A DNA stretch of 64,000 nucleotides from an uncultured archaeon. GTDB lineage: Archaea; Nanobdellota; Nanobdellia; Woesearchaeales; CAIVOO01. Both the position numbers and the translations under genes were made by a program. Under the pieces are notes generated by a model. That model did no database searches, was not told where the DNA came from, and saw only the letters and a list, made by a program, of their open reading frames with translations. Of the stretch, positions 20,091-34,772 are shown piece after piece (position 1 is the first letter of the stretch; each line of letters begins with the position of its first letter). The stretch is taken from assembly GCA_903842985.1 (NCBI GenBank), contig CAIMOB010000014.1:14897-78896 (forward strand), given 5' to 3'.

Positions 20091-21282
20091 CAGAGAGGAA
20101 ACTGAGCAGGCAGCTGCTAAATTAGGCAACCTTGAAGAGATTGAGGAGATGTCAGGCAAGCTTGAGATGCAGAATCTTGAGCCTAAGCTGATGCATTCTG
20201 TTATTGAAAACGACAAGGAAATAATTGATGAAGGCAAATTAATCAAGGAAGCATACAACCAGGGGCTTTCAAACTTTATCCCTGACATTATGTTTGAGCA
20301 GCTGGTAAAGAATTTCTCAATGGCAAAGCAGATTTACGGCGAGACAATCATTAAGCTTACAACAGGCTATGACGCAGATTATATTGAAAAAAATATCAAG
20401 ATTCCTGAGTTTCAGAAGGTGATAAAGAAGGCAATAGAGGAAAAGGTAAAAAAGCTGAAAAAAGATAAGGTGCTGGATAATGAAAATTCATTAAATGACG
20501 CTTCTTTGGAGCTCGCTTCAATGATAATGTATCTTGAGGAGCTTGATAATATAACACCGAAAGGCATTTACGGCGAAAAAATACACAAGAAAATCTCGCT
20601 TTACGGCGACAAGGAGGATTACAGGAATTTCACAAAAGATACAAGATACAGGGACATTGCAGTCAAGCATTCTGTCAAGACAGCAATAAGAAGAGGGCAC
20701 GAAAAGCTTGAGATGGTTGATTTGAAGGCATTTGAAAGAGGAAGCAAGGGAAAGGCAGTCATAATCTATGCAATGGATTCATCAGGCTCGATGAAAGGCA
20801 AGAAAATTGATTCGTCAAAAAAAGCAGGCATTGCTTTGGCATTCAAGGCGCTGAAGGAGAAGGACGAAGTTGGCCTGATTATATTCGGAGACGAGCTAAA
20901 GGCAGTCATCCCGCCGACACAGGACTTCGCAAGACTGCTCAAGGAAATCACAAGGATAAAGGCTTCAAAGGAGACAAACATTGCGCTGCCGCTGAAGAAA
21001 TGCATTGAGCTGTTCCCTTCAGAGGATGTTACAAAGCATTTGATTCTACTCACAGATGCAATCCCAACTGTAGGCGAAGAGCCTGAGAAAGAAACAATAA
21101 ACGCAGCAATCGAAGCAAGGGAGAAAGGGATTACAATTTCCCTGATTGGCATAAACTTAGATAAGAAAGGAAAGGAGCTGGCAAAGAAGATTGTCGATAT
21201 CGGGCAAGGAAAACTGTACATTGCGAAGAAATTGGATGAGATTGACAAAATAGTATTGGAAGACTATTATAATATTGTATAG
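20077..21282 (+). CDS. von Willebrand factor A domain protein (MoxR partner)
   Basis: MIDAS-like [13 protein letters not shown]...HLILLTDA. The MoxR-VWA pairing is a well-known arrangement. Confidence 0.7.
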
Positions 21283-21317: not shown

Positions 21318-22256
21318 ATGAAGACTATTTTAGTGACTGGCGGGGCAGGGTTCATAGGAAGCCATTTGTGCGAATACCTTCTTCATAAAGGTGATTTTGT
21401 AATCTGCGTTGACAATCTTTTTACAGGAAGCAAAGAAAACATAAGACATCTTCTGCAGAACAGCAATTTCAAGTTCATAGAACATGACATAATAGACCCT
21501 TTGCACATTGAAGACAGGAAAATAGACCAAATCTATAATCTTGCCTGCCCAGCCTCACCTGTTCATTACCAGTTCAATCCAATAAGAACAATAAAGGCAA
21601 ATACACTTGGCGTCATAAATGTGCTTGGGCTTGCAAAAAAACACAAAGCAAGGATTCTTCAGGCGTCAACCTCAGAGGTTTATGGAGACCCGACAGAGCA
21701 TCCGCAGACAGAGAGCTACAGGGGCAATGTGAACACAATCGGGCCGAGGGCATGCTATGATGAGGGCAAGCGGGTTGCTGAAACATTATTTTTTGATTAC
21801 CACAGGGCGCATAAGCTTGAAATAAGGGTTGCGAGAATATTTAATACATACGGCCCGAGAATGGCAAAGAATGACGGAAGAGTTGTCTCAAACTTCATTG
21901 TGCAGGCATTGAACAATGATGACATAACAATTTATGGCAGTGGAAAGCAGACAAGGTCATTTTGTTTTGTTTCTGATTTAGTTCTTGCGCTTCACAAACT
22001 GATGAATGCAGAGAATTTCACAGGGCCGGTAAATCTTGGAAATCCAGAGGAGCTGACTATGACCGAAATTGCAGAGAAAATAATAAATCTGTCTGGCTCA
22101 AGGTCTAAAATGGTTTTTAGGCCGCTGCCTGAAGACGACCCTAAACAAAGAAGGCCCGACATATCGCTTGCAAAAGCGAAGCTTGGCTGGCAGCCGTCTG
22201 TGAAGGTTGATGACGGCCTGAAGAAGACAATTGATTATTTCAGGACAGTATGCTGA
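21318..22256 (+). CDS. NAD-dependent epimerase/dehydratase, UDP-glucuronate decarboxylase (UXS)-like
   Basis: [10 protein letters not shown] Rossmann motif and YDEGKRVAE catalytic region typical of UXS/dTDP-glucose dehydratase-type SDR enzymes. Confidence 0.8.
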
Positions 22257-25200
22257 TTATTTCCTCTCCTCAAATGGATTAACAAACTTGATTTTCTTGA
22301 ACTCCTTTTCATAAATCTCAGGCATCTTCTCCATTGTGAGTATTCTTTTCTTCCATACCTTGTGTGTGTAATGCGTGAGCGCGAATGTGATGTCCTTGCA
22401 TAGCTCCATAGGCAGATTGTATGTACCTTGTATCAGCTCAGCCTTCCACTCAAATTTTTTCTCAAGCTCGAATGCAACAAGATTTTTCAGCTCTTTGTAT
22501 TTTTCGCAGTTCTCCCTTAGAGTGTAAATCTTCCTGTATTCCCTTATCTTGTTCTCGCTGATTAATTTTTCAATTGTTTTGCTGTCTGCTACCAATACTT
22601 TTTTTGGCCAGAAAAGTATGAATAATGAAATCAACAAAGTAATTAATTTGATAATGATTAATGTGATGAAAATTATTTTAATTGTTTCGCTTCCGCCAGA
22701 ATTTGGAGCTGGGCTCTCTTTTTCTGGCGCTTTCTCAGGAGATTTTTCCTCTGTTTTTGCTTCAGCTAATTTTTTCTCCTCTTTTGCAGGTGTTCTTATG
22801 CCAGTTTCGTTTTCCTTTGGTCTTGTTATCAGTGGCGCAACGCCTCCGCCTTTCTTTTCTGTTGTTCCGCCGCTTGGCGCAGGCGTGCTGCTTGGCACAG
22901 CAACTGTTAAATTGTAAATCAAAGAAGCGCCTGTATTTCCAAGCTCATCTGTGCAGTTTACGCTCCAGTTGTACTTTCCATTGGTCAGTGTTCTTGTGAA
23001 GCTCTGCGCCATGCCTTTTGTTATTGTTGTGCCTGTTAAGATTATTGCTTTATTTATTATTAACGAGCAGTTCGAGATGCTGCTTGCATCGCTTACATTG
23101 TAATTGAATGTTGTCGATGCAGTTGTCCTTTTTGTGTTGTTTGCAGGCGACTCAAGCGAAACATCCGGCGCAGTTGTGTCCCTTATTGTTATGTTTATTA
23201 TTATTGAGCGCCTGTTATTCAGCGTGTCATTGACAGAGATGTTCAGCCATTTTGTTCCTATTGGCACTGATGTGCTCTCTTCTATTACGCCCGATGTTTT
23301 GTTTATCTTGAAGTAACCAGTGTCATTAATCCAGTACTGGCTTATGCCACTTGGGTCTGTCGCATTTACTTCATAGTAAAATATATCTCCTGCCTCAAGC
23401 GTCTTGTTTTTAGGCGTCTCTACCCATACGGGAGGGGTTGTGTCAACAATAAAGAATATCTGCTCTGAAGCGATGTTTTTTGAAGTGTCATTTGCATAGA
23501 TGGTTATGTTATTCAATCCTTCCTGACCTAAGAATGTTATGTTCTGGCACGAAGGAAGGTCCAGCCTGCTTCCTGTCACATTCACATACCAGCACTGCGA
23601 GACAGCTGTCTCGTCGCTGACAGTGTAGTTGAGAGTTATTACATTTGAATTGTGAAGCGAGTTGTTCTGCGGCAGAGAGACATCCAGAATAGGCGCTGTT
23701 GCATCAAGTGTGAAGACGATTGGGGTATCTGTATTTGCAGCGATGCTCTGCTTTGGGTTAACTGAGATGTTGTATACCTTATTATAATTTGCCGGAGTGA
23801 AATTCAGTTTTGCATTCACGAAACCATAGATATTAGTGTAGCCATACCATATGCTTTTGCTCCCGTTTGTCACATTCACCAGCCTGTTCACAGCAAAGCT
23901 TCCGTTTGTGTAGTTTACAATGACAGGATAGTACCTTAATAATTTGCCAGTGTACACCCTTACATTGCTTGGCATGTCAACATAGCCATAAATTTTTGGT
24001 GTATTGTTATATACTCTTACAGAGTTTGTGATGTTTGATTTTGGAAGCGTAAAATTAACTACCGAATTTCCCATAATATATGTAAGGTCATTAAAAATAC
24101 AATTCTTGAATTCGTTCTTTGAATAATTCAGTGTGTACATTCTGTTTTTGAAAGTAGAATTCTCAACGAAGTTGATGGAAGAATCTTTGAAATATGCATA
24201 ATAGAGTGCAGTAGAATTAATTATGGTGTTTACTGAATAACCCCCAAAATGCAATTGATCATATGTTTTAATATTTTTGATTAGGTGATTCTTGTTTCCT
24301 GACATATGCAGCTCAGACCCATTCAACAGGCTGTTTGTCAAGTTTAGATTGCCATAGACCCAAATTTTAAAATAGAATAATATATTGCTTCTGATAACAG
24401 AATCTTTTATATTTAGGCTGGCATTTTCACTGACATATATATTTTGATTGCCCGGCGCCTGAATTAGTGTGAATGTTGTGTTTTCAAGCGTCAAGGTGCT
24501 TGTATTTTCCAAGATCAGCGTCTGGTTTTTGAAATATAATATAGTATTGTTGCATATAACATCTGCATTCTCAATTGTCCAATTCGTGCCTGGCGGAGGC
24601 AGCCCGCAGCCAGGAAGAACATAAATATCGTCAGAAGTTTTGAAATATTCATAATTCGTTTCATTGCAGCTTATATTGTAATAGTAAGGTCCTGCGATTG
24701 TGAAGTTTCTTCTGAACTCAAACAATTTTGTTGATGCATTGTAATTCATCTGATTATTTAGGTCAGAGAAGCTTATGTTGCAGCTTCCTGCTGTTACTGG
24801 CGCTCCTGAAGTTCTGTTTGAGTAGTTTGCATAGAATGTTATTTCTTCGTGCGTTGTTCTGTTCATCCAGCCGCCTTCTGGGTCGTTTTCGTCAAATATT
24901 TTTAATTCTGAATTCGTTCCTGCGCTGTAATTCGAGAAACCGGCAACTTCAAATGTGAAATTCTCGCTATCATATCCTCTGCTTTTGCAGTTGGCGCAGA
25001 CAGCCCCGTTCTTTAGGGCAATAGGCGTTTTCTTGAAACTTAGGCTGTAGATTGTCAGATTCGCAGGCTTGTTAAATTCAGAATATTTGCTTGCGTTCAT
25101 ATAAACTGAATTAGCTCCAATCCTGAACGCCTCCGAAGCCCTTGTCAGGTCAGTTGTGCTTCCGAACTTTACCTTGCCATTCTCGGATTTCACTGAATCT

Positions 25201-26957
25201 TCTGTTGAATTTACCTGCAGGACAGCATTAACTGCCTGAAGAACATCTATTCGCGGGAATGTCAGGCCGGTTCTTGAAATGAAAACATTGGTTCTTGTCT
25301 TCAGCAGCTCTCTTACAACACTTGGAGTCGCATTTTTATGGTTAAGCAGCTTTTCCTTCTGATAAATCAATGCAGCAGCGCCTGCGACATGAGGAGTTGC
25401 CATGGATGTTCCGTGTTCTGTACGATAACCAGAGGCGCTGCAAAAAGTGCAGCTGCCTTTTGGCACAGTTGAATTTATCAAGTTTCCCGGCGCAAGCAGG
25501 TCGAGTATTCCTGCAGTTTTTGTGAAAAAGGAAATTGTGTCTACTGTTGCATTTATCGTAGAGCCGTCATTGGAAGAACCAACAGAAGTTGCATTTGGAG
25601 CACAGGCAGGGTATATAATTCCATTATTTCCTGAATCATCAACCACATTGTTTCCAGAAGCAGCCACAACAAAAATATTATTTGCAACAGCAAAATCAAT
25701 ATCATCTGCTATCAGCCCCCCATCAGGCGCTCCAGTGCCATGGCATTGTGTGTAACGATTGGTGTAATCTCCGTTGTCCCCCAGACTCATCGTTATTATG
25801 GAAATATTGTATCTGCTTTGGTTGTTAATGCACCAGTCAATGGCTGCAGCAGTAACTGACAGCGAGCCAGTCCCGTTTGAGTTCAATGCTTTGACCGCAA
25901 TAATCTTTGCATCAGGTGCAACACCTTTTAATTTACCATTTGCAGCAACAATCCCTGCAACGTGTGTTCCGTGGCCGTTGTTATCATAGGGATTATTGTT
26001 TTCAGAAGTGCAGTTTTCATCTGCGCAGAAATTATGCCCGCCAATTATTTTTGAATTGGGGAAGCTGTTTGAGCCGCCGAAATCAGAGTGATTGTATGCA
26101 ATTCCTGTATCAATGACACAGACGCCAACGCCTTTTCCTGTCAGGTTTATCCCGTTTACTTTCTCGCCCCACACCTGGTTTGCCTTTATCAGCGGAACAC
26201 TTTCGCTTAAGCTTATATGAACTGGCTTGTCCTCAACTATTTTTTTGATATCCTTATTTTCCTCTAATTTTTTAAGCTCGTCTTCAGTGACGCTCAATGC
26301 AAGCGCATTGACATTTGAGTATTTTTGCTTGATTTTCGTTTCATTTTTATTAAATGTCTTCTCAATCTCCTTCTGCGCAATGCCTATGTTTTCCCTTCTT
26401 AGTTTATTTTTGTCGCCTGAAACAGCAAACTTCTTTCCTTTCGGCTCGTTTAGTACGACAATAACATTAAACCTTTTCTCTTTCCTGGTTTCGCTCAGAT
26501 TCTTTTCAATCTCTGGCTTCCTTTTTTTCTCAATCCATGTTAAGTTCTGCACAACATAGCTTGCCTTTTTCAGCTCAAGTGTTCCATTTAATTTTATGAT
26601 TAATTCAAAGCTTGTCTGGTTGAATTCGTCGATTGAGCAGGTTTCTTTGCATTTGTCTGCAAAATTTTCAGAACTGCTGGCTATCAAATATGTTCTGTTT
26701 GCAGATTTAAGATAAATCTCAGCACTTCCGTTAACATTTCCAGTCAGCTTGAAGCTTGTCAATCTTGGAACTCTTGGCGATTCAAGGTTAACTGTCAAAT
26801 TCATTGAGGAATTCAATGTCAAATTAATGTCTTTTTCATAGCTTAAATCATTGACATTCTGCCAGAACAATCCAGTTATATTTGGATTAGAGAATGCAAA
26901 GACTAGCGCAACTATCAAGACAATGCCTATGCCCACTTCTTTTAGCTTTAGCCTCAT
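22257..26957 (-). CDS. giant cell-surface subtilisin-like (S8) serine protease/adhesin with C-terminal transmembrane anchor and cytoplasmic tail
   Basis: Signal peptide. The S8 catalytic triad motifs are VIDTGIAYNHSDF (Asp), HGTHVAGIVAAN (His) and GTSMATPHVAGAAALI (Ser). Long N-glycosylation-sequon-rich beta domains follow, then a T/P/E/K-rich linker, one hydrophobic helix (IIFITLIIIKLITLLISLFILFW) and a charged cytoplasmic domain of about 110 aa. Confidence 0.8.
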   Translation of the reverse strand: MRLKLKEVGIGIVLIVALVFAFSNPNITGLFWQNVNDLSYEKDINLTLNSSMNLTVNLESPRVPRLTSFKLTGNVNGSAEIYLKSANRTYLIASSSENFADKCKETCSIDEFNQTSFELIIKLNGTLELKKASYVVQNLTWIEKKRKPEIEKNLSETRKEKRFNVIVVLNEPKGKKFAVSGDKNKLRRENIGIAQKEIEKTFNKNETKIKQKYSNVNALALSVTEDELKKLEENKDIKKIVEDKPVHISLSESVPLIKANQVWGEKVNGINLTGKGVGVCVIDTGIAYNHSDFGGSNSFPNSKIIGGHNFCADENCTSENNNPYDNNGHGTHVAGIVAANGKLKGVAPDAKIIAVKALNSNGTGSLSVTAAAIDWCINNQSRYNISIITMSLGDNGDYTNRYTQCHGTGAPDGGLIADDIDFAVANNIFVVAASGNNVVDDSGNNGIIYPACAPNATSVGSSNDGSTINATVDTISFFTKTAGILDLLAPGNLINSTVPKGSCTFCSASGYRTEHGTSMATPHVAGAAALIYQKEKLLNHKNATPSVVRELLKTRTNVFISRTGLTFPRIDVLQAVNAVLQVNSTEDSVKSENGKVKFGSTTDLTRASEAFRIGANSVYMNASKYSEFNKPANLTIYSLSFKKTPIALKNGAVCANCKSRGYDSENFTFEVAGFSNYSAGTNSELKIFDENDPEGGWMNRTTHEEITFYANYSNRTSGAPVTAGSCNISFSDLNNQMNYNASTKLFEFRRNFTIAGPYYYNISCNETNYEYFKTSDDIYVLPGCGLPPPGTNWTIENADVICNNTILYFKNQTLILENTSTLTLENTTFTLIQAPGNQNIYVSENASLNIKDSVIRSNILFYFKIWVYGNLNLTNSLLNGSELHMSGNKNHLIKNIKTYDQLHFGGYSVNTIINSTALYYAYFKDSSINFVENSTFKNRMYTLNYSKNEFKNCIFNDLTYIMGNSVVNFTLPKSNITNSVRVYNNTPKIYGYVDMPSNVRVYTGKLLRYYPVIVNYTNGSFAVNRLVNVTNGSKSIWYGYTNIYGFVNAKLNFTPANYNKVYNISVNPKQSIAANTDTPIVFTLDATAPILDVSLPQNNSLHNSNVITLNYTVSDETAVSQCWYVNVTGSRLDLPSCQNITFLGQEGLNNITIYANDTSKNIASEQIFFIVDTTPPVWVETPKNKTLEAGDIFYYEVNATDPSGISQYWINDTGYFKINKTSGVIEESTSVPIGTKWLNISVNDTLNNRRSIIINITIRDTTAPDVSLESPANNTKRTTASTTFNYNVSDASSISNCSLIINKAIILTGTTITKGMAQSFTRTLTNGKYNWSVNCTDELGNTGASLIYNLTVAVPSSTPAPSGGTTEKKGGGVAPLITRPKENETGIRTPAKEEKKLAEAKTEEKSPEKAPEKESPAPNSGGSETIKIIFITLIIIKLITLLISLFILFWPKKVLVADSKTIEKLISENKIREYRKIYTLRENCEKYKELKNLVAFELEKKFEWKAELIQGTYNLPMELCKDITFALTHYTHKVWKKRILTMEKMPEIYEKEFKKIKFVNPFEERK

Positions 26958-26958
26958 T

Positions 26959-27228
26959 TTATCCTACATAATCTATTTTGTGCGTTTCTCCTAACAGCTC
27001 AACTGAGTACTTGTCAAACTTGACATTCCAATGGTTAAAAAATTCCTCTATGTCCTGTGATTTACTATCCAAGACAATGAAACAGCCAGGAACAAGAAAA
27101 CGGCCTCTATGTTCGCCAACAACTCCTTCATGGCCATTCCTTCCTTTAAGGGCCTGTACAAATTTGACTTTTGTAAGATTATCTAGCTGAGAAATATTGT
27201 AAACATATATTACCTCTTTTTTGTGCAT
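26959..27228 (-). CDS. hypothetical protein (translationally coupled upstream of the S8 protease gene)
   Basis: An 89-aa ORF whose stop lies 2 nt before the protease start. Confidence 0.4.
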   Translation of the reverse strand: MHKKEVIYVYNISQLDNLTKVKFVQALKGRNGHEGVVGEHRGRFLVPGCFIVLDSKSQDIEEFFNHWNVKFDKYSVELLGETHKIDYVG

Positions 27229-27328
27229 ATCAGTTAACCTATTAACTTAAAACTAATATTTAAATCTTTCGGTTAATAAGTTAACAAATTAAAAAGAATT
27301 TGATGTTTTTTGTTAATGAATTAACAAA

Positions 27329-30300
27329 TCAACAAGCTGGTCCGCCCACTAACCAAGAATCATGGCAGACGCATTTTAAATGGCGGAGATAGCTTTTAAT
27401 TGTGTCATTAAACTCCGCTGCAGTTGACAGCGGAATTGTTTTTACGTATGTCCCTCCAGATGTTTCTTGACAATAGTCAACGTTGTAATTCAATGCATCA
27501 ACCTGCGCTTTTGTAGAAATGTTATTTCCTGGCGTCATATATTCATCCCCTATCTGGGTATTAAGGTCGTCATAGCGGTCCCATACAGCATTGATAGCTA
27601 TTGGCACTATAATCAATGTTGTATTGACATCATACCATGGATCACCCCAGTCAGTTGGCAAAAACTGGAAATAATCCCTGTAAATTGGATCAGCAATTAC
27701 ATCAGCTTCATTTTCTGTCATGTAAACAGTTACATTTTCGTATCGAACAGCTTTGTTCCCTGCCTTGTCTGTTGCAGTTGCTTTTGTAACATAATGCCCG
27801 CTTACATTATATCTAATATTTATCTCTCCCATATCGCTGCCAGGCCCTGAGTAATCAACATCATTGTCTTTTATGCCGTCTCCGCTGGAGTCTGTGTTTA
27901 TGTCTTTGTCTAAGGTAACGTTTATGCTGGCGTCTGTTCTGCCTTCTATGTACACCATCTGCGCAGCAAGTGTTCCTGGCTGCGGCGGATCAAGCGCACT
28001 ATAATAAAACTTATATGGTCCTTCCATTCCTTTGTACTCAGTTAAGTAGCCTCCAATATAACCATAGATCATTTGACCAAAATTAGGCGGTGTTGTGTCC
28101 CTTATGATAAAGAAATCTCCAAGCTTATGCATCTTCCCCCATCTCAAATTATCATATGCATGAATTTCATATCTTCCAGGCCCCCAGTTGCAGGGTATGT
28201 AAACCTTGTAGTTCTTGTTGTGCTGTTTATTGTCGTTTGGCAGGAACAGGTTCTCAGAGGATTTGCTCTGGTTTCCGCAGTAGACAGTTTTTCCGTTTAC
28301 AGCACAGGGAATTGGAGCGCTTTCAACACCGCTTATTGCTGTATGGTTCTCTACAATAAACGTGACAGTTGTGTCATTGTAGCCGTTGTTTATGCCGAAC
28401 ATGTTGAAATTAACATATTCGTTGCAAGTGTAGTTATTATTTCCTTCATACCTTCCTGAATAGATTATGTGCCCATCAACATTCAGGTTCTTGTAGTATG
28501 TTGAGTTCTGGTCAACATCTGAATTGTGCGAACCTGTGTCGCACCAGTCATCATCAAAGTCATTCCAGTTCTTTATGCCGTCATGGTCGCAGTCATCTGT
28601 GTAGGGAGTTGTGTTCTGCGGAGGCCAGGTGTAATTGTACAATTCAACAAGTATGACAGCATCGTTGTAGTCAAAGTCAGGCATGATGCTCTTTTTCACG
28701 TCAAGGTCCTCGAAATAAATTCTCCAGGTGTCATAGTCAAGCCTGTCAACTATTGCATAGCTCGAGTTTGAATAATGGTCATAATCCATTTTCGTTGGGC
28801 AGTATCCTTGCAGGCAGTGCACCCTAATGTACAGCAAAATCTCTGTCAGCGCATTTATCTTCTGCCCATTGTTGAGCACAACAGACTTTCCTGTTGAGGT
28901 GTTCGCGACAAGCATGGCACTGTAGGGCTTTGCAAGGCGAAGGTCTGATTTCAGGCCAGCCTCTGCTTTTTCAAAAAGGACTCTTACGTTGCCTGTTTCA
29001 GGCAGTATTATCAGTTTGTCCGCTGTTGGCTGAGTGCTCATCTTGTGGTCAAAATCCTTTTCATCGGTTCCCTCAATGACAATATTTACATACTTCGTGC
29101 TTGCTGTTGAGAATCCATAATAAGCGCCGTTTGCGTCTGTCACAGCGTCAGGAATAGGCTTCGGCTGCAGTGCAGAGTAATTTCCTGTCATGTTCTCAGC
29201 ATTCCATACTGTGTTGTTGTAAAAGGATATGTTTTCTCCTGCAATTGGCAGGCCGGTGTCTGTGTCAAACACCCTTCCATAGACATTCGGAATCCAGTTT
29301 GAGCAGCTTGGGTAAGTGCCATTCCAGTCAAGGCTGTGAAAGTTGCATACATCCACTGTGCTGTTGCTTCCGTCATAGCATTCGGAATTTACATGGCATG
29401 ACTGATGTGCATGAAGGATTATTGACTTTGAAACATTTTCAATGCCGTCGTTTGCATTCAAAGTTATGTTATAATCTCCGTATTGCGTTGAATTAGGCAT
29501 CCAAATGATTGTTTTATTTATGAAAACAGCTCCAGCAGGAAGGTTCTGCACAGAAATGTTGACTGTCCCATTATCGGGGTCGCTGACATTTATATGTATA
29601 TTCGCGTTGTACGTGCTCCAGGCTTCGCTGTCGCCCGTGAGTATTACAGGAGGAGCGTTCATGTATGTGTTGTTTGCGTAGACATTATTTGAGCTGTTTG
29701 CCCTGTATCCGCCGAAATTGAGCAGGTTTTTTGTTATAGAATTTCCTATTGAATTATAGCCAAGCAAAATTGCAGTTGCACTGTTGTGCGTAACATTGTT
29801 TTTGTAGACTATGTTGTTCTTGTTTCCAATCCCTCTTGATGGAACAATGTCATTCATCAGCAGAACGCCCTCAAATGCATTATTCTTCACGTTGTTGCTT
29901 CTTATCTCGTTGCTGCTTGAGTTGAAAAGCGCGATTCCAGGACCTAAATTGTTCAGGACATTGTTATTAACAATATAATTTAGCCCTGCGCTTCCGACGT
30001 AGATTCCTGAATAAAATCCTCTTTTGCTTTCAGTCACATCAAATCCGCCGTTTCCTGTCAGGTTGTTGCCAACAACATAGTTGTGCACTGCATTGTTGTT
30101 ATTGTTTCCAGTAATCTGTATTCCTGCATTTGAATTGTAGTTCACAATGTTGTTTGTGACATTGTTATAGTCATTGCCGTTCTGGAGCGTGATTCCGTAT
30201 TGCTGGCTTTCAATAATATTATTCTTTATTACATTGTATTTGCAGCTTGTTGCATCATCCAATATCTCTGATGGAACAAGATTAATTCCTCTTTTGGTAT

Positions 30301-31369
30301 TGAATCTTAAGGTATTTCCTGAGATTGTGTTATGAGAAGCATCAACAAGCTCGATGCCAGCAGTTGTGCTGTTTGTTATGATATTATTGGTTAATATATT
30401 GCTGTTGGAATTTTCAAGATAGATTCCTTTGCTGTACTTCTTAATATTGCAGTTCTTTATTGTGTTGCCATTGTAGCCGTTGCTGTAAATTCCATACCCA
30501 GCGCCATTGCCGACAATTACTGAATTATTACAGTCCAACACAATATTGTTTGCTCCAATCTTCAGTATTCCGTCGCCATTCGCGTCGTTTGTGTTGTATG
30601 TTCCTGCGCAGAGAACTGCGCTTACATTAACAACTAAGTCATCAACAACATGCGCGCACGGCTTCCCGCTTTCCTGTGAAGTGTAATTCGTGAAATGCTG
30701 GACAGTGAATGTCAAATCCCCGTTTGTATAGCTGATAATATTGCAGTCAGTGCATTTGCTGTCGTCTTGTAAGATAACAGGATTGCTGAAAGACAAGCCA
30801 TACAATGTTAATGTTGCCGGCTTGTTCAGCTCCGGCAGATTATTTGAGTCAACTGAAATAAAATTATTGGATATCTGGACATAAGCATCAAGGTTTGTAT
30901 TTGAAATATCAACAGACTGCCCGCTGAAATCGATTTTTCCACTGTTCGGGACTTCAAGCACCAAATCATTGACAGAAGTTAAATCGCTTTCCTGCGAAAA
31001 ATCAGTTGTGTCGCCTGAAAACTCTGTCGCGTCAGGAATGTTTGAGCTTGAACCTGAATTGCTTGAACCGCCTGAACTGCCTCCTGAAGAGGTTTTCTTG
31101 CTTGTACTTGAGCCTGCGAGAATATTATACGTAAACTTTGTTTGGTTTTGGGTTACAGCTGTCTGATTTTTGCTTGGCTCTTGAACTTTATTCTGTGAAC
31201 TTTCATTTACAACCGCAGGAGTCTCATTCGCTTCTGCTGCCTTCAATTCCGAAGAAGCTGTTCTGTCATAAATCACATTCCCTGTAATCACACCTTTGCT
31301 GCAGCCGTAGAGAAATATAGTTAAGACTGCCAGAATCAATACGCCCCATTTTTTATTTTTCTGGTTCAT
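27329..31369 (-). CDS. giant secreted lipoprotein with right-handed parallel beta-helix (NosD/PbH1-type) repeats
   Basis: Signal peptide ending LYGC (lipobox). Repeated N-x-I-x-x-N/beta-helix segments follow (NNIITNSTTAGIELVDASHNTISGNTLRFNTKRGINLV and many more). C-terminal Cys-rich end. Confidence 0.7.
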   Translation of the reverse strand: MNQKNKKWGVLILAVLTIFLYGCSKGVITGNVIYDRTASSELKAAEANETPAVVNESSQNKVQEPSKNQTAVTQNQTKFTYNILAGSSTSKKTSSGGSSGGSSNSGSSSNIPDATEFSGDTTDFSQESDLTSVNDLVLEVPNSGKIDFSGQSVDISNTNLDAYVQISNNFISVDSNNLPELNKPATLTLYGLSFSNPVILQDDSKCTDCNIISYTNGDLTFTVQHFTNYTSQESGKPCAHVVDDLVVNVSAVLCAGTYNTNDANGDGILKIGANNIVLDCNNSVIVGNGAGYGIYSNGYNGNTIKNCNIKKYSKGIYLENSNSNILTNNIITNSTTAGIELVDASHNTISGNTLRFNTKRGINLVPSEILDDATSCKYNVIKNNIIESQQYGITLQNGNDYNNVTNNIVNYNSNAGIQITGNNNNNAVHNYVVGNNLTGNGGFDVTESKRGFYSGIYVGSAGLNYIVNNNVLNNLGPGIALFNSSSNEIRSNNVKNNAFEGVLLMNDIVPSRGIGNKNNIVYKNNVTHNSATAILLGYNSIGNSITKNLLNFGGYRANSSNNVYANNTYMNAPPVILTGDSEAWSTYNANIHINVSDPDNGTVNISVQNLPAGAVFINKTIIWMPNSTQYGDYNITLNANDGIENVSKSIILHAHQSCHVNSECYDGSNSTVDVCNFHSLDWNGTYPSCSNWIPNVYGRVFDTDTGLPIAGENISFYNNTVWNAENMTGNYSALQPKPIPDAVTDANGAYYGFSTASTKYVNIVIEGTDEKDFDHKMSTQPTADKLIILPETGNVRVLFEKAEAGLKSDLRLAKPYSAMLVANTSTGKSVVLNNGQKINALTEILLYIRVHCLQGYCPTKMDYDHYSNSSYAIVDRLDYDTWRIYFEDLDVKKSIMPDFDYNDAVILVELYNYTWPPQNTTPYTDDCDHDGIKNWNDFDDDWCDTGSHNSDVDQNSTYYKNLNVDGHIIYSGRYEGNNNYTCNEYVNFNMFGINNGYNDTTVTFIVENHTAISGVESAPIPCAVNGKTVYCGNQSKSSENLFLPNDNKQHNKNYKVYIPCNWGPGRYEIHAYDNLRWGKMHKLGDFFIIRDTTPPNFGQMIYGYIGGYLTEYKGMEGPYKFYYSALDPPQPGTLAAQMVYIEGRTDASINVTLDKDINTDSSGDGIKDNDVDYSGPGSDMGEINIRYNVSGHYVTKATATDKAGNKAVRYENVTVYMTENEADVIADPIYRDYFQFLPTDWGDPWYDVNTTLIIVPIAINAVWDRYDDLNTQIGDEYMTPGNNISTKAQVDALNYNVDYCQETSGGTYVKTIPLSTAAEFNDTIKSYLRHLKCVCHDSWLVGGPAC

Positions 31370-32031
31370 TTTTTGTTGTACCAGTTAAGCTTTACTACGA
31401 ACGAAGTATTTTCTAAACTATCATCGGCTTGAACTGTTCTTGTCACAGGATTTTTATATGGAAGATCGCCTGAAACAAAATAAGGGCATCCAGCTTCACA
31501 GCCAGTTGATGTCACAGTTGTTGGATAATTTAAGATTACAGACGCATTAGGCATTTCAATTACAGCAATTACATCATTGAGAACAATGCCGTCTGTCAGA
31601 TTTTTGATTCCGAAATTTACATTCACAATGCTTTCTGGAGTTGATGTGCAGTTTGCATCTGTGCTTATGCTGTAATCAGCGCTTACTGTATTAGGGTCAA
31701 TTGGCGAAACAATGCATGCATTAGGGTCATCAGAATTAATTTGCCATGTATGTGTTTCAAGAAGGTAATGCTGCTGCGCAGGAGGCTGCTGCTGCGCAGG
31801 CGGAGAACTGTAGCTTTGCTGCCCGCAGGAAAACGCAGGCTGCGATTGCGTTGTTATTGCCTGATAATCCTTAAAACTAAGGCCATATGCTGATGACACG
31901 CACTCTTCTAATGCGCTTCCCTGCTTTCCTTCGCATACATCCTTGAAATTAGAATCTATACTGCAACCTAGACCAATAAGTGTTGCAGCAATTAAAACAG
32001 GCTTGATTAAAATAGACTTTAATGAATGCAT
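31366..32031 (-). CDS. secreted hypothetical protein (Cys- and Q/P-rich)
   Basis: N-terminal hydrophobic segment ending LIGLGCS (lipobox-like). Overlaps the start of the downstream beta-helix gene by 4 nt, suggesting an operon. Confidence 0.5.
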   Translation of the reverse strand: MHSLKSILIKPVLIAATLIGLGCSIDSNFKDVCEGKQGSALEECVSSAYGLSFKDYQAITTQSQPAFSCGQQSYSSPPAQQQPPAQQHYLLETHTWQINSDDPNACIVSPIDPNTVSADYSISTDANCTSTPESIVNVNFGIKNLTDGIVLNDVIAVIEMPNASVILNYPTTVTSTGCEAGCPYFVSGDLPYKNPVTRTVQADDSLENTSFVVKLNWYNKK

Positions 32032-32123
32032 ATATACCACCCTTAAATGACTAATGTATATACTGCAATATATAAATCTTTCTAGAAATTGGCCTTAACT
32101 ACTTATTTTTCAGTTATAAGAAA

Positions 32124-33638
32124 TTATGAAACAGGCAAATAAATATTAAAAATTGCGCCTTTTCCCGGCTCTGATTCCACATCAATCTGTCCGTTATGCC
32201 TCTTAATTATGGAATATGCAGTTGAAAGCCCAATTCCTGTTCTTCCTTCTTTGGTTGAGAAAAAAGGGTCAAATATCTTAGACAATTTATCTTTGGGAAT
32301 GCCAACTCCATGGTCTTTAACAGCGATTTTTATGTACCTTCCTTCTTGTAAATCTGAATATTCTCTGTTTTTAAATAAAATGTTTTCAGCCTGAATATTA
32401 ATCACACCTCCGTCGGGCATTGCCTGGTTCGCATTCTCCACAAGATTGGCAATAACCTTGCTTATCTGCCCTTCATCTATGTTAACCAGGCCAAGATTAT
32501 CAGCAATATTAAACTCATACTTGACATTAGAGCTGCTCAGTGCAAAATTGGCAGAGTCTTTAATTAGCTTCTCGATTGACACAATCTTTTTGATCGGCGC
32601 TCCTCCGCTTGCAAATGTGACTAATTGGCTGGCCAGATTTTTCCCCCGCAGGGACGCTTTTTCTACATCCTCTATTATTTCATATAATTCCTTATCATCA
32701 CTGTATTGCTCTTTAATGCAGGAAATATTTCCCAGAATGCCTGCCAGCACATTATTGAAATTATGGGCTATGCCTGCTGCAAGATTGCCAATGGCTTCAA
32801 GTTTCTGCATTTTAAGCTTCTGCTCTTCAGCTTTCCTGTGTTCAGTGACATCCCTAAAGAGACCTAAGAGATATGTTTTTCCAGCCAGTGTTATCGGAGT
32901 CGAGTTTATGTCTGAATAAAAAACACTGCCATCTTTTCTTTTTACCGGAATATCTTTAGCCACTGCAATCTCTCTTCTTGCCTGTTTCTCAAACTGCTCT
33001 ATAACATAGGGCAAATCTTCCTTGGGATGAATATCAGCAACTCCTAAATTTTTAATCTCTTCAAGACTATAACCTAACATTTGACAGATTGCATTATTGC
33101 AGTCATCAAATTTTTTGGTCTCATTATCTACCAGGATTATTCCGTCGTTTGCATTATCAAAAATAGTTTTAAATCTTCCCTCGGAATCCCGCAGCGCCTC
33201 CTCCGCCTGCCTGCGTTCGGTGATGTCACGGCACAGCGTAAGAATCTTTGTTACTTCATCTACTTTTATGACAGTCGCATTAATCTCAATTGGAGTAATC
33301 TTGCCTTGAGCATTTATGTAGTCAATATTCAAATTTCTGATTTGGCCCTCTCTAAAACATTTATCGACAGCTTCGGCATTCTTTTCTTTTTCGTAATCAG
33401 CTGTCCATTCAACTACGCTTCTGCCATATATCTGGCTGAGATTCTTATGCCCAGAAAGACGGACATATTCCTGATTTGCATCAATGACCTTGCCTTCTTG
33501 GTCAAGAATTACAAAACCTGTATTAGTTGTTTCAATAAGCCCATTATATAGTGTCAGATTTTTCTGCAATGCCTTTTCAGCTTCCTCCAGCTCCTGAATC
33601 CTTTTTTCCAGTTCTGAATAAGTTAGTTTTTTATTCAT
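32124..33638 (-). CDS. PAS-domain sensor histidine kinase
   Basis: Two PAS-like segments, the H-box AHNFNNVLAGILGN, and the HATPase_c motifs GVGIPKDKLSKIFDPFFSTK...GIGLS. Confidence 0.8.
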   Translation of the reverse strand: MNKKLTYSELEKRIQELEEAEKALQKNLTLYNGLIETTNTGFVILDQEGKVIDANQEYVRLSGHKNLSQIYGRSVVEWTADYEKEKNAEAVDKCFREGQIRNLNIDYINAQGKITPIEINATVIKVDEVTKILTLCRDITERRQAEEALRDSEGRFKTIFDNANDGIILVDNETKKFDDCNNAICQMLGYSLEEIKNLGVADIHPKEDLPYVIEQFEKQARREIAVAKDIPVKRKDGSVFYSDINSTPITLAGKTYLLGLFRDVTEHRKAEEQKLKMQKLEAIGNLAAGIAHNFNNVLAGILGNISCIKEQYSDDKELYEIIEDVEKASLRGKNLASQLVTFASGGAPIKKIVSIEKLIKDSANFALSSSNVKYEFNIADNLGLVNIDEGQISKVIANLVENANQAMPDGGVINIQAENILFKNREYSDLQEGRYIKIAVKDHGVGIPKDKLSKIFDPFFSTKEGRTGIGLSTAYSIIKRHNGQIDVESEPGKGAIFNIYLPVS

Positions 33639-34056
33639 TTTTTCCTTCCAATATCAGGGTGATTGCCTCCTCCATCTCGTTTAATGTGTAGGGTTTGACA
33701 AGAGCGCCTTTAAAATGATATTTTTTAAAATCAGTCATTACTGGATTTTCAGAATAACCGCTTGAAACCATCACTTTGACACCAGGGTCTATTTCAATCA
33801 GTTTTTCTAATGTTTTCTCGCCACCCATGCCGCCTGGGACAGTTAAGTCCAGTATGACAAGGTCAAAAGGCTTGTCTGATTTCCTGGCTTCTTTATACAA
33901 TTCTATTGCTTCAGCGCCGTTTGATGTAAATTCCCCGAGATATCCCAAATTTTTAAGTATCCTTCCAATAGCTTTTATGATTATTTCATCATCATCCATT
34001 ACAAGTATCTTTGCTTTATAATCTGTTTTTTTATCCATTTTAGTGAAAAAACACAC
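33631..34056 (-). CDS. response regulator receiver domain protein (CheY-like, stand-alone)
   Basis: ILVMDDDEIII...DLVILDLTVPGGMGG...VSSGY matches the receiver-domain pattern. It overlaps the kinase start, suggesting an operon. Confidence 0.75.
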   Translation of the reverse strand: MCFFTKMDKKTDYKAKILVMDDDEIIIKAIGRILKNLGYLGEFTSNGAEAIELYKEARKSDKPFDLVILDLTVPGGMGGEKTLEKLIEIDPGVKVMVSSGYSENPVMTDFKKYHFKGALVKPYTLNEMEEAITLILEGKNE

Positions 34057-34127: not shown

Positions 34128-34772
34128 TTAAAAGCTAGAAAATCTCAAAAGCTCATCAGCAGACTCCAGAAGCATACCTATGCCTTCCTTCTTCAGCTTC
34201 TGGACAAACTTATCCTCAATCCTCTTTCTCACATTAGGGTCAAGCATAGCCTTGAATACATTAACATGATTTTTCTCCATCTCCCTTTTTACAATATCAA
34301 AGCAGGACAGCCTATTGCCTGAAATTTCAATGCCTGTATTGAAATATGCCCCATATTTTGCAGTGCCTTCGCAGATTAATTTGCAGCAGACATTCTTTTC
34401 AGCTTCAACAAAATGCCAGACCTCTTCAACTATTACGCTTTTTCTGAAGCCAGGGTCAATGTTTTTGAATGGTTGATAGAAAATGATATCTTCTGTATAG
34501 ACCTCTTTTGGAAGTTTGAGCTCGGAAATCTTTTTTTCAAGCTTTTGCATGTTTTGTTCACCATATATCTCCCTGAGCTGTTCGTCAACACCCTTTGTCA
34601 GAATTTTTTTTAGATTTTGGTTTAGCCTTGCGTAAAACCCCGGATTGTACGGGCACAGCTCATCAACAAAAACAAATGTCGGTGTCAGCAGGGATTTAAC
34701 CCCCCTTCTGCCAAGATATTCAATTGTGTTTTGAATTTCGTCTCCTATTTGCATTTTAAAACCCCAAGCCAA
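34128..34772 (-). CDS. hypothetical protein
   Basis: A 214-aa ORF. No family recognised. Confidence 0.45.
   Translation of the reverse strand: MAWGFKMQIGDEIQNTIEYLGRRGVKSLLTPTFVFVDELCPYNPGFYARLNQNLKKILTKGVDEQLREIYGEQNMQKLEKKISELKLPKEVYTEDIIFYQPFKNIDPGFRKSVIVEEVWHFVEAEKNVCCKLICEGTAKYGAYFNTGIEISGNRLSCFDIVKREMEKNHVNVFKAMLDPNVRKRIEDKFVQKLKKEGIGMLLESADELLRFSSF

What the first reader, a model, noticed from the sequence alone, without database searches (positions are those of the whole stretch)
22257..34056. Surface-protein island: 1566-aa S8 protease-adhesin with a cytoplasmic tail, 1346-aa beta-helix lipoprotein, secreted partner and a PAS histidine kinase/response regulator pair
About 10 kb is devoted to two giant exported proteins on the same strand. 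The protease has an unusual topology for an exported S8 enzyme: signal peptide, catalytic domain, long beta-rich stalk, a single C-terminal transmembrane helix and a charged cytoplasmic domain of about 110 aa. That suggests outside-in signalling or anchoring. A small 89-aa gene is translationally coupled upstream. The beta-helix protein is coupled to a secreted Cys/Q/P-rich partner. A two-component system lies immediately upstream on the same strand. For a likely episymbiotic small-genome archaeon these are candidate host-attachment or host-degradation factors.
Basis: partly seen in the sequence, partly recalled or inferred. Interest (0 to 1): 0.55.

Follow-up and report, generated by a model that had tools for sequence, protein, structure and literature searches.

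The report
Archaeal surface protease with PIN-like tail
This stretch of a DPANN-type (Woesearchaeota-like) archaeal genome encodes a fast-evolving cell-surface module (a giant beta-helix protein, a tiny cytoplasmic protein and a giant membrane-anchored protease), and three of its building blocks are unannotated: a nuclease-like (PIN) fold on the protease's inner tail, a new 89-residue protein family, and nuclear-pore-type self-cleaving domains.

Summary
All six ORFs exist as described. The "island" is three transcription units, not one system. The conserved core is a gene triad: beta-helix giant, then an 86-89-aa protein, then an S8 protease. I found it in five lineages. The two-component system and the 224-aa partner recur only in the syntenic sister genome.

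- **p89:** an unannotated ferredoxin-like family (73 homologues) that usually sits inside giant-surface-protein operons.
- **Self-cleaving domains:** both giants carry a Nup98/Nup145-type autopeptidase (S59) domain, with an intact HF|T site in the beta-helix protein and GF|S in the protease.
- **Divergence:** the module is 60-73% identical to the sister genome, against 84-94% for the flanks.

My reading is a displayed protease/adhesin module. Whether the PIN-like tail cuts RNA or only docks a partner is unresolved.

The parts
22257..26957 (-). S8 gene: a 1566-aa type-I membrane subtilase (signal, pre-region, I9, S8, APD-like domain, beta-rich stalk with Ig-like domains, TM, PIN-like tail)
   Evidence: ORF. 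Pfam. Homologues. Hydropathy and sequons.
26865..26957 (-). N-terminal hydrophobic signal or anchor of S8 (residues 1-31)
   Evidence: Hydropathy. 116 of 120 homologues have an N-terminal hydrophobic segment. Cleavage was not predicted.
26214..26393 (-). Inhibitor_I9 propeptide (residues 189-248)
   Evidence: PF05922, 24.6 bits against a cut-off of 21.2.
25290..26138 (-). Subtilase catalytic domain (residues 274-556) with D283, H329 and S518
   Evidence: PF00082, E 2.3e-46. Motifs DTG, HGTH and GTSMA located.
24906..25253 (-). Nup98/S59-like autopeptidase domain of S8 (residues 569-684), ending in GF|SNY (His replaced by Gly)
   Evidence: Motif and alignment to the BH domain. Profile hits to Nup98/Nup145 only. 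Local HMM scan.
22698..24905 (-). Glycosylation-rich stalk (residues 685-1420): beta-helix-like repeats, three weak Ig-like matches and a K/E/P-rich linker
   Evidence: Weak Glucodextran_B, Big_7 and Big_13 hits. Sequons. This is the most diverged part and holds a 587-residue indel relative to the sister genome.
22587..22691 (-). Single C-terminal transmembrane helix (about residues 1423-1457)
   Evidence: Kyte-Doolittle window up to 2.87. A Lys-Lys pair follows directly on the tail side.
22260..22607 (-). Juxtamembrane cytoplasmic PIN-like domain (residues 1451-1566)
26959..27228 (-). p89: an 89-aa cytoplasmic ferredoxin-like protein of an unannotated DPANN family. Its stop codon is 1 nt from the S8 ATG.
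27258..27265 (-). TATA-like box (ATTTAAAT, preceded by purine-rich GAAAG) about 30-37 nt upstream of the p89 ATG
   Evidence: Read from the sequence. A near-identical GAAAGATTTATATATT lies upstream of p224. Not tested experimentally.
27310..27327 (-). Perfect 8-bp inverted repeat (TTGTTAAT-TC-ATTAACAA) immediately after the BH stop codon, followed about 14 nt downstream by a T5 run. It is a terminator-like or operator-like element.
   Evidence: Read from the sequence. No functional test.
27329..31369 (-). BH gene: a 1346-aa exported beta-helix protein with no C-terminal TM
   Evidence: ORF. Pfam. Orthologues align over almost the full length in L004, L005 and L006.
30689..30994 (-). Nup98/Nup145-type (S59) autopeptidase domain of BH (residues 126-227), ending in HF|TNY
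   Evidence: As an isolated domain it scores PF04096 36.6 bits against a cut-off of 28.4. In the PDB profile searches, five of six hits at E <= 10 and all 12 hits at E <= 1 are Nup98/Nup145/Nup116 domains. HF[ST] is kept in all four BH orthologues.
29870..30592 (-). Right-handed parallel beta-helix (residues about 260-500)
   Evidence: PF13229 E 1.5e-21 and PF05048 E 3.4e-12. TIGR03804 repeats.
31366..32040 (-). p224: a small exported Cys/Gln/Pro-rich protein that overlaps the BH start by 4 nt (probable ATG at 32031). It is not part of the conserved core.
   Evidence: ORF. Hydropathy. No Pfam or NCBIfam match. Present only in L004, at 60% identity.
32124..33638 (-). Cytoplasmic PAS-PAS histidine kinase. 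It is adjacent to the module, not part of it.
   Evidence: Pfam and NCBIfam. No TM. 91% identical to the sister genome.
33631..34056 (-). Stand-alone receiver-domain response regulator (probable ATG at 34038), with its own TATA-like box upstream
   Evidence: PF00072. Sequence. The orthologue in L004 is 135 aa.

Best explanation
The region holds a conserved cell-surface module of Woesearchaeota-type DPANN archaea, next to an unrelated two-component system.

**The core triad**
1. BH is exported and held at the membrane only by its N-terminus (a lipobox-like signal). After a Ser/Gly-rich linker it has a Nup98-type autoproteolytic domain with an intact HF|T site. I infer that it self-cleaves there. 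The 1100-residue beta-helix body would then stay attached non-covalently to a short membrane stub and could be shed.
2. p89 is a small cytoplasmic ferredoxin-like protein made from the same transcript as the protease.
3. S8 is a type-I membrane glycoprotein. It has an I9 propeptide, a subtilase with an intact catalytic triad, a degenerate copy of the autoproteolytic domain (GF|S) that probably serves as a docking domain, and a long glycosylated stalk. A TM helix follows, and directly after it comes a PIN-like domain in the cytoplasm.

**How it most likely works**
The two giants display a protease and a carbohydrate- or surface-binding beta-helix far from the cell. There they would contact or digest partner-cell or environmental polymers. 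Their rapid divergence reflects that exposure.

The PIN-like tail is a modular juxtamembrane unit shared by many giant surface proteins. I think it most likely docks a cytoplasmic partner or nucleic acid at the membrane. Residual nuclease activity is possible.

p89, like the HTH and AbrB-like genes found in the same position elsewhere, is most likely a dedicated regulator or assembly factor for the giant protein.

**Shown versus inferred**
- Shown: gene order, domain content, conservation and fold predictions.
- Inferred: self-cleavage, and the roles of the tail and of p89.
For: **Triad and context**
- The triad is conserved in the window, L004, L005, L006 and L044. BH orthologues align over most or all of their length, at 28-72% identity.
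- The two-component system and p224 are absent from L005, L006 and L044.
- Three TATA-like promoters lie upstream of RR, p224 and p89.
- Identity to the sister genome: flanking genes with an assigned function 84-94%, HK 91%, S8 64-66%, BH 71%, p224 60%, p89 73%. S8 also has a 587-residue stalk indel.

**S8 and BH domains**
- S8 triad and I9. All 74 sequons lie outside the TM.
- BH autopeptidase domain: PF04096 at 36.6 bits, above the 28.4 cut-off. PDB profile hits are almost exclusively Nup98/Nup145/Nup116, and the alignments end at the HF|S site.
- HF[ST] is kept in 4 of 4 BH orthologues, and GF[ST] in 4 of 4 S8 orthologues.

**Tail domain**
- 55 clusters, almost always starting within about 22 aa after a TM helix.
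- Ectodomains of the carrier proteins are S8, beta-helix or Ig-like.
- D11 (97% D/E), E71 (91%) and T94 (97%) are conserved.

**p89**
- 73 homologues. Ferredoxin-like model, pLDDT 88.3.
- It sits next to giant exported proteins in most of the loci that have enough flank.
Against: - There are no experimental data of any kind. TM and signal assignments rest on hydropathy only.
- The position expected for the fourth acidic residue is mostly Asn, and the third acidic position is only about 76% D/E across two adjacent columns. Catalysis cannot be called either way.
- Self-cleavage is inferred from the motif alone. The S8 copy lacks the His.
- The lipobox is non-canonical in the window protein and absent from the L005 orthologue.
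- A minority of p89 loci do not show giant neighbours.
Confidence: 0.6

Rival explanations
1. Integrated signalling island. The surface protease senses contact and signals inward through its tail. The adjacent PAS kinase and response regulator control or receive that signal.
For: All six genes are on one strand and tightly packed. The same arrangement is in the sister genome L004. The tail is a real cytoplasmic domain.
Against: - The two-component system is absent from the three more distant triad loci.
- It has its own promoter-like element.
- The kinase has no TM segment and diverges like housekeeping flanks, at 91%.
- The receiver has no output domain that would link it to the surface genes.
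Confidence: 0.1
2. Membrane-tethered toxin-antitoxin-like or abortive-infection switch. The PIN-like tail is an active VapC-type RNase. It is held in check by the small protein encoded just upstream (p89 here; AbrB/MazE-like or HTH proteins in other lineages). It is released or activated when the ectodomain is engaged or damaged, for example by a virus or a host cell.
For: - The best structural matches are VapC toxins.
- There is a near-invariant Asp/Glu at the end of strand 1, plus conserved Glu71 and Thr94.
- The upstream small gene is translationally coupled in four of the five triad loci.
- Other PIN-tail giants are preceded by a MazE/AbrB-type gene in L045 (PF04014, 38.9 bits) or by overlapping double-HTH genes in L046, L047/48, L049 and L051. 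This is the gene order and the domain types typical of VapB antitoxins.
Against: - p89 also precedes giants with no PIN tail: L007, L009 and L011, where tails are Pro/Lys-rich, coiled-coil or absent.
- p89 does not have a known antitoxin fold.
- The fourth catalytic position is Asn in 61% of members.
- No PIN sequence profile matches, and there is no PADLOC hit beyond the subtilase.
- Upstream DNA-binding genes are equally well explained as ordinary transcription factors.
Confidence: 0.15
3. p89 is a stand-alone prodomain-like chaperone or inhibitor of the S8 protease.
Against: - p89 has no signal peptide or hydrophobic segment, so it should stay in the cytoplasm while the protease is outside.
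- S8 already carries its own I9 propeptide.
- Many p89 loci contain no S8 gene at all.
Confidence: 0.05
4. The C-terminal hydrophobic segment is part of a cleaved sorting signal (PGF-CTERM/archaeosortase type), or the tail is a separate gene fused by a sequencing or assembly error.
For: Some distant S8 homologues are annotated with PGF-pre-PGF domains.
Against: - No PGF-CTERM model hit, and I see no PGF tripeptide before the TM.
- The TM is followed by about 110 residues rather than a short basic tail.
- The same TM-plus-domain junction is in frame in P0002-P0004, P0196 and about 50 other clusters from independent assemblies.
Confidence: 0.02

Closest known systems
Membrane-anchored S8 subtilases of DPANN archaea (annotated only as 'S8 family serine peptidase')
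   Same: Signal, I9, an S8 catalytic domain with an intact triad, a long beta/Ig-rich region and a single C-terminal TM. 108 of 120 top homologues share the C-terminal TM.
   Different: Most have a basic tail of about 16 aa. This clade adds a ~115-aa folded PIN-like tail, and it sits in a fixed triad with a beta-helix giant and p89.
VapC / PIN-domain nucleases (PIN domain-like superfamily; Matelska et al. 2017, PMC5499597)
   Different: No sequence-profile match. Asn occupies the expected fourth acidic position. The domain is fused after a TM helix to a 900-2700-aa ectodomain rather than being a ~130-aa free toxin.
PIN.COG4956 (YacL/TTHA0540-type PIN-TRAM proteins with four N-terminal TM helices)
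   Different: It is mostly bacterial, polytopic at the N-terminus, has a TRAM domain and has no ectodomain. Here the protein is single-pass type I with the PIN-like domain at or near the C-terminus.
Nup98/Nup145N/Nup116 autoproteolytic domain (peptidase family S59, PF04096)
   Same: The BH domain passes the Pfam cut-off when scanned alone. Profile hits in the PDB are almost exclusively this family. The alignment ends at the HF|S cleavage tripeptide.
   Different: It is extracellular, in archaeal surface proteins, and carries a conserved Cys pair (C87 and C90 are invariant). Many copies have Gly, Ser or Gln in place of His. Cleavage has not been shown.
SEA and GAIN autoproteolytic modules of mucins and adhesion GPCRs (functional analogy, from general knowledge)
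   Same: A self-cleaving domain next to the membrane anchor that leaves a large ectodomain non-covalently attached and able to be shed.
   Different: There is no sequence or fold relationship. It is an analogy of mechanism only.
Cas2 / procarboxypeptidase activation domain / other ferredoxin-like small domains (for p89)
   Same: A beta-alpha-beta-beta-alpha-beta fold of about 80 residues.

Membership tests
Peptidase S8 (subtilase) | Profile match above the curated threshold | tested here: met
   PF00082 at 158.8 bits against a cut-off of 21.8.
Peptidase S8 (subtilase) | Asp-His-Ser catalytic triad in its conserved motifs | tested here: met
   DTG at 283, HGTH at 329 and GTSMA at 516, so Ser518.
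PIN domain-like superfamily | Rossmannoid alpha/beta/alpha fold with a five-stranded parallel sheet | tested here: met
PIN domain-like superfamily | Three or four conserved acidic residues at the C-terminal ends of the core strands | tested here: inconclusive
   D11 is 97% D/E, E71 is 91% and T94 is 97%. Positions 96/97 hold D/E in 25 of 33 members. Position 113 is Asn 61%, Ser 18%, Asp 15%. I could not map these positions onto the model's 3D coordinates.
PIN domain-like superfamily | Sequence-profile match to a described PIN family | tested here: not met
   No PIN family appeared among the Pfam hits of 33 members at E <= 1. hhalign against one VapC sequence found nothing.
PIN domain-like superfamily | Metal-dependent nuclease activity | not testable with these tools
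   This needs a biochemical assay.
VapBC-type toxin-antitoxin pair | A small free PIN toxin preceded by an antitoxin with an AbrB, RHH, HTH or PhD DNA-binding domain | tested here: not met
   The PIN-like domain is the tail of a 1566-aa membrane protein. p89 is ferredoxin-like, not a known antitoxin fold. Other PIN-tail giants do have MazE/AbrB or HTH genes upstream.
Nup98-type autopeptidase (S59, PF04096) | Profile match above the curated threshold | tested here: met
   The isolated BH domain scores 36.6 bits against 28.4. Within the full-length protein it scores 27.9, just below. Six of nine tested members match.
Nup98-type autopeptidase (S59, PF04096) | His-Phe-Ser/Thr tripeptide at the C-terminal end of the domain | tested here: met
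   This row is for BH: HFT at 225-227, and HF[ST] in all four BH orthologues.
Nup98-type autopeptidase (S59, PF04096) | The same tripeptide in the S8 copy | tested here: not met
   GFS at 673-675, and GF[ST] in all four S8 orthologues.
Nup98-type autopeptidase (S59, PF04096) | Actual self-cleavage | not testable with these tools
   This needs expression of the domain with and without a T227A change.
PGF-CTERM / archaeosortase substrate | PGF motif, a TM and a short basic tail at the extreme C-terminus | tested here: not met
   No NCBIfam PGF-CTERM hit at E <= 0.01. I see no PGF tripeptide before the TM, and about 110 residues follow it.
Lipobox lipoprotein | [LVI][ASTVI][GAS]C at the end of a signal peptide | tested here: inconclusive
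   BH has L-Y-G-C, with Tyr outside the consensus at -2. L006 has a canonical I-A-S-C, and L005 has no Cys. p224 has G-L-G-C. The consensus is quoted from bioRxiv 10.1101/2024.08.27.609747, which also predicts that lipoproteins are widespread in DPANN.
Two-component system functionally tied to the surface genes | Conserved co-occurrence and co-transcription with the module | tested here: not met
   It is present only in the syntenic sister genome and absent from L005, L006 and L044. It has a separate TATA-like element.
Cas2 | Ferredoxin-like fold, a conserved catalytic Asp at the end of strand 1, and a CRISPR-cas context | tested here: not met

The most novel reading that the evidence does not exclude
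Giant surface proteins of DPANN archaea are transmembrane sensor-nucleases. A VapC-like PIN RNase sits directly under the membrane and is fused through one TM helix to a protease or adhesin ectodomain. It is controlled by the small protein encoded just upstream (p89, or AbrB/HTH proteins in other lineages). Contact with a host or virus outside would then be converted into RNA cleavage inside. This would be an archaeal counterpart of Ire1-type or abortive-infection logic. A second, independent novel point is that the nuclear-pore Nup98 autopeptidase domain has extracellular archaeal relatives that self-cleave surface proteins.
Probability: 0.15. Interest if true: 0.85.

Novelty: new variant of a known kind. 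Interest (0 to 1): 0.6.

Why it matters
DPANN archaea live attached to other cells, and their giant surface proteins are the prime candidates for that contact, yet almost nothing in them is annotated. This locus gives a defined, recurrent gene syntax: giant, then small cytoplasmic protein, then giant.

It also yields three testable building blocks:
- a juxtamembrane PIN-like domain shared by about 55 protein clusters;
- a new ~85-aa protein family;
- S59-type self-cleaving domains.

If the tail is an active nuclease, this would be a new way for a cell to couple surface events to RNA turnover. If the S59-like domains self-cleave, it shows how these archaea build surface structures that can be shed. 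It would also give the Nup98 autopeptidase of the eukaryotic nuclear pore a prokaryotic relative. My searches of the held literature found no report of such a relative.

Tried and rejected
**Searches that gave nothing or could not run**
- The word-indexed 5.8-billion-protein search with the 9-sequence autopeptidase alignment returned nothing at E <= 0.001. Not even self-matches appeared, so I treat this as uninformative. I used local HMM scans instead.
- The afdb50 fold library was unavailable.
A narrower subgroup alignment gave five loci.
- PDB sequence searches with the p89 and tail profiles found nothing meaningful.
- Pfam at E <= 10 gave only noise for p89, the tail and p224.
- PADLOC gave only generic subtilase hits.
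- Look-ups for an organism name for the window's own proteins returned none.

**Ideas rejected**
- p89 as a PIN-specific partner: it also occurs with giants that have other tails or none.
- Horizontal acquisition: GC content is 0.38-0.43 across the region, within the range of the rest of the window.
- The tail as a cleaved sorting signal or a gene-fusion artefact.
Full report

Yes.

| Gene | Coordinates | Length |
|---|---|---|
| RR | 33631-34056 | 141 aa |
| HK | 32124-33638 | 504 aa |
| p224 | 31366-32040 | 224 aa |
| BH | 27329-31369 | 1346 aa |
| p89 | 26959-27228 | 89 aa |
| S8 | 22257-26957 | 1566 aa |

Pfam and NCBIfam confirm the stated domains.
- S8 has Inhibitor_I9 and Peptidase_S8. 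D283, H329 and S518 sit in their usual motifs.
- BH has Beta_helix/NosD repeats and a He_PIG Ig domain.
- HK is a soluble PAS-PAS-HisKA-HATPase kinase.
- RR is a receiver-only response regulator.

Hydropathy gives S8 an N-terminal hydrophobic segment, one C-terminal TM at about 1423-1457 and a 109-111-residue Lys/Glu-rich tail. All 74 N-glycosylation sequons lie before residue 1383. S8 has 4.7 sequons per 100 residues, against 1.2 for the kinase. That fits an external ectodomain and an internal tail.

The gene junctions are as claimed. The p89 stop is 1 nt from the S8 ATG, p224 and BH overlap by 4 nt, and RR and HK overlap by 8 nt. Two small corrections apply. RR probably starts at ATG 34038 (135 aa, as in the sister genome), and p224 probably starts at ATG 32031.

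**2. Whose genome is it, and is the topology unusual?**

The protease's 1024 detected homologues include many from DPANN archaea. Named ones are Woesearchaeota, Nanoarchaeota, Aenigmarchaeota and Pacearchaeota. The window also carries an archaeal wyosine-synthesis gene.

Among the 120 best homologues, 116 have an N-terminal hydrophobic segment and 108 have a C-terminal TM helix. The median tail is 16.5 residues, and only nine have tails of 100 residues or more. A C-terminally anchored subtilase is therefore the rule in this group. The unusual feature is the long tail.

**3. The conserved unit is a triad, not the six-gene island.**

I fetched the contigs of the closest homologues. The order beta-helix giant (1002-1361 aa), then an 86-89-aa protein, then an S8 protease with TM and tail recurs in L004, L005, L006 and L044 as well as the window. 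The BH orthologues tested (L004, L005, L006) align over most or all of their length, at 28-72% identity.

The two-component system and p224 occur only in L004. That contig is syntenic with the window on both sides.

Upstream of RR, p224 and p89 there are separate TATA-like elements. The p224 and p89 boxes share GAAAGATTTAWATATT. A perfect 8-bp inverted repeat lies directly after the BH stop, with a T5 run about 14 nt further on. I read this as three transcription units: RR-HK, p224-BH and p89-S8.

Identity between the window and L004:

| Gene(s) | Identity |
|---|---|
| Flanking genes with an assigned function (SpoU, MoxR, VWA, metallophosphoesterase, MFS, three methyltransferases, DeoC) | 84-94% |
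| One unannotated flank ORF (orf202) | 70% |
| HK | 91% |
| RR | 78% |
| p89 | 73% |
| BH | 71% |
| S8 | 64-66% |
| p224 | 60% |

Within S8 the first stalk segment is the most diverged structured region (56%), and the sister protein carries a 587-residue insertion among the Ig-like domains. GC content is unremarkable. So this is a resident, fast-evolving surface module. The kinase behaves like the housekeeping flanks.

**4. The cytoplasmic tail is a recurrent juxtamembrane domain with a PIN-like fold.**

The tails of the four closest homologues align, ending in F-x-N-P-F-E-E. An exhaustive profile search of 1.84 billion representatives found 55 proteins at E <= 1e-3 and 28 at E <= 1e-10.

In almost all of them the domain begins within about 22 residues after a predicted TM helix. 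A few hits had no nearby predicted TM. The carrier proteins have an N-terminal signal and an ectodomain of 300 to 2600 residues. Those ectodomains are S8, beta-helix/NosD or Ig-like. Named members are Woesearchaeota or Nanoarchaeota, apart from one contig labelled as a KSB1 bacterium.

No Pfam family matches any of the 33 members tested. AlphaFold2 on the 33-sequence alignment gives pLDDT 90.4 and pTM 0.83, with five strands alternating with helices.

Column statistics:

| Position in the domain alignment | Conservation |
|---|---|
| 11 (end of strand 1) | D/E in 97% |
| 71 | E in 91% |
| 94 (after strand 4) | T in 97% |
| 96 or 97 | D/E in 25 of 33 members |
| 113 (after strand 5) | Asn 61%, Ser 18%, Asp 15% |

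The window protein has D, E, T, E and N at these positions. Some canonical PIN features are kept and one is replaced. I could not map the residues in 3D, so catalytic competence stays open.

The only membrane-attached PIN group that I found in the superfamily classification is COG4956. It has four N-terminal TM helices, a PIN domain and a TRAM domain, and is mostly bacterial (PMC5499597). That is a different architecture.

**5. p89 is a new small protein family tied to giant-protein operons.**

p89 has no hydrophobic segment and no Pfam, NCBIfam, PADLOC or PDB sequence match. Seventy-three homologues of 78-146 residues were found, all from DPANN-type sources.

I examined 29 species-representative genome loci plus the metagenome loci. 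In most loci with enough flank, p89 sits between large exported proteins. Upstream giants run from 913 to more than 2600 aa. Downstream there is either an S8 protease or a 540-750-aa protein, followed by a 2100-2300-aa giant with a C-terminal TM.

p89 is not specific to the PIN-like tail. Those other giants have Pro/Lys-rich repeat tails, and the L011 protease has a coiled-coil tail.

Conversely, PIN-tail giants of other subgroups have different small genes directly upstream, overlapping or within a few bases:
- a MazE/AbrB-type protein in L045 (PF04014, 38.9 bits);
- double Sigma70_r4-like HTH proteins of about 170 aa in L046, L047/48, L049 and L051.

The general syntax is a small cytoplasmic, often DNA-binding, gene coupled to a giant membrane protein. 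That fits dedicated regulators. It also resembles antitoxin-toxin gene order, which keeps the more exotic reading alive.

**6. Both giants contain a nuclear-pore-type autopeptidase domain.**

Pfam flagged a near-threshold Nup98-96 autopeptidase (S59, PF04096) match in BH. Scanned alone, BH residues about 120-236 score 36.6 bits against a cut-off of 28.4, and six of nine related domains match.

I ran two profile searches of the PDB.
- With the 9-sequence alignment, five of the six hits at E <= 10 were Nup145, Nup98 or Nup116 autoproteolytic domains (best E 0.0019). The sixth was an unrelated lipoprotein at E 0.87.
- With the 25-sequence alignment, all 12 hits at E <= 1 were from that family (best E 0.0023).

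In both cases the alignment ends exactly at the HF|S cleavage tripeptide.

All four BH orthologues keep HF[ST]-x-[YF], and all four S8 orthologues have GF[ST]NY.

From general knowledge of Nup98, PIDD and Unc5CL, the HFS tripeptide is where an N-O acyl shift cleaves the chain, and the two halves stay bound. I therefore infer that BH self-cleaves after F226. Its beta-helix body would then be held non-covalently on a short membrane-anchored stub. The S8 copy, which lacks the His, may be a non-cleaving docking domain.

My searches of the held literature found no report of prokaryotic S59-type domains or of TM-fused PIN domains of this kind. That library is incomplete.

**7. Best reading and its limits.**

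The module displays a protease and a beta-helix protein on long, glycosylated, rapidly diverging stalks. That is consistent with contact with, or digestion of, partner-cell or environmental polymers by an ectosymbiotic archaeon.

The link to the two-component system is not supported. The "unusual topology" claim holds only for the tail.

The tail's function is open. I favour a docking or nucleic-acid-binding role (about 0.45) over an active RNase switch (about 0.15-0.25).

Everything rests on sequence comparison and predicted structures. TM and signal assignments are hydropathy-based. Self-cleavage, nuclease activity and the role of p89 all need experiments.

**8. Verdict.**

- Novelty: a new variant of a known kind. 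It is a surface subtilase/adhesin module with a new juxtamembrane PIN-like domain family, a new small-protein family and unannotated S59-type domains.
- Interest: 0.6.

Noticed in passing
window 27271-27328 (minus strand, BH-p89 spacer): The motif ATTTGTTAA occurs twice about 38 nt apart. The first copy lies inside a perfect 8-bp inverted repeat right after the BH stop. The second overlaps a GTTAAC palindrome just upstream of the TATA-like box. This may be an operator for a regulator.
   Followed up: partly
window 19065-21282 (+): A MoxR-type AAA ATPase and a VWA-domain protein form an overlapping pair next to the module. They are 92-94% identical in the sister genome. This is a classic MoxR-VWA chaperone pair of unknown client.
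   Followed up: no
window 21318-22256 (+) and 34128-34772 (-): The NAD-dependent epimerase/dehydratase gene abutting the S8 stop codon, and the unannotated 214-aa ORF upstream of RR, gave no match in the sister contig L004. L004 has a 137-aa gene and a 256-aa gene at those positions. These are small indels at both edges of the module.
   Followed up: partly
L007 8287-10428, L009 8312-10537, L012 8252-8872 (genes just downstream of p89 homologues): These 700-750-aa proteins begin with K/R-G/A-Q followed by a hydrophobic stretch (for example MKKRGEKRGQVSIFIIMGIVIL). This looks like an archaeal class III (type IV pilin-like) signal peptide.
   Followed up: no
L026, L030, L032, L033, L039, L040 (2100-2300-aa giants two genes downstream of p89): Their cytoplasmic tails of 160-260 aa after the C-terminal TM are Pro/Lys-rich and contain a repeated EFEKLAKLTEEH-like motif. 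This is a different family of tails on giant surface proteins.
   Followed up: no
L049 5735-10828 (C-terminal ~165 aa), also tails of P0063, P0111, P0059, P0024, P0005 and L028: There is a recurring ~35-residue helical repeat, G-x-S/T-x-E-E/Q-I-x(3)-L-x(3)-G/K-W-x(4)-V/I. It occurs in four copies after the PIN-like domain in one subgroup and as a single copy in short tails of other S8 homologues. P0226 gives a RecX_HTH1 hit in such a region.
   Followed up: partly
L045 5705-5995 and 13198-13770: A 2397-aa beta-helix giant with a PIN-like tail is flanked by a MazE/AbrB-type 96-aa gene 5 nt upstream and by a 190-aa protein with a weak bacterial PH-domain match 3 nt downstream.
   Followed up: partly
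window 27329-29400 (BH residues about 660-1346): The C-terminal half of BH has no Pfam match. It contains Asp-rich DxDxDG-like stretches (DDCDHDGIKNWNDFDDDWCD, SGDGIKDNDVD) that resemble calcium-binding thrombospondin type-3-like motifs, and it ends in a Cys-rich segment conserved in L006.
   Followed up: no
L044 (GCA_042576465.1) / P0196: A contig carrying the archaeal-type triad is labelled 'candidate division KSB1 bacterium' in NCBI. Several GTDB records with p89 are titled 'uncultured Methanosarcinales'. These are probably binning or labelling errors.
   Followed up: no
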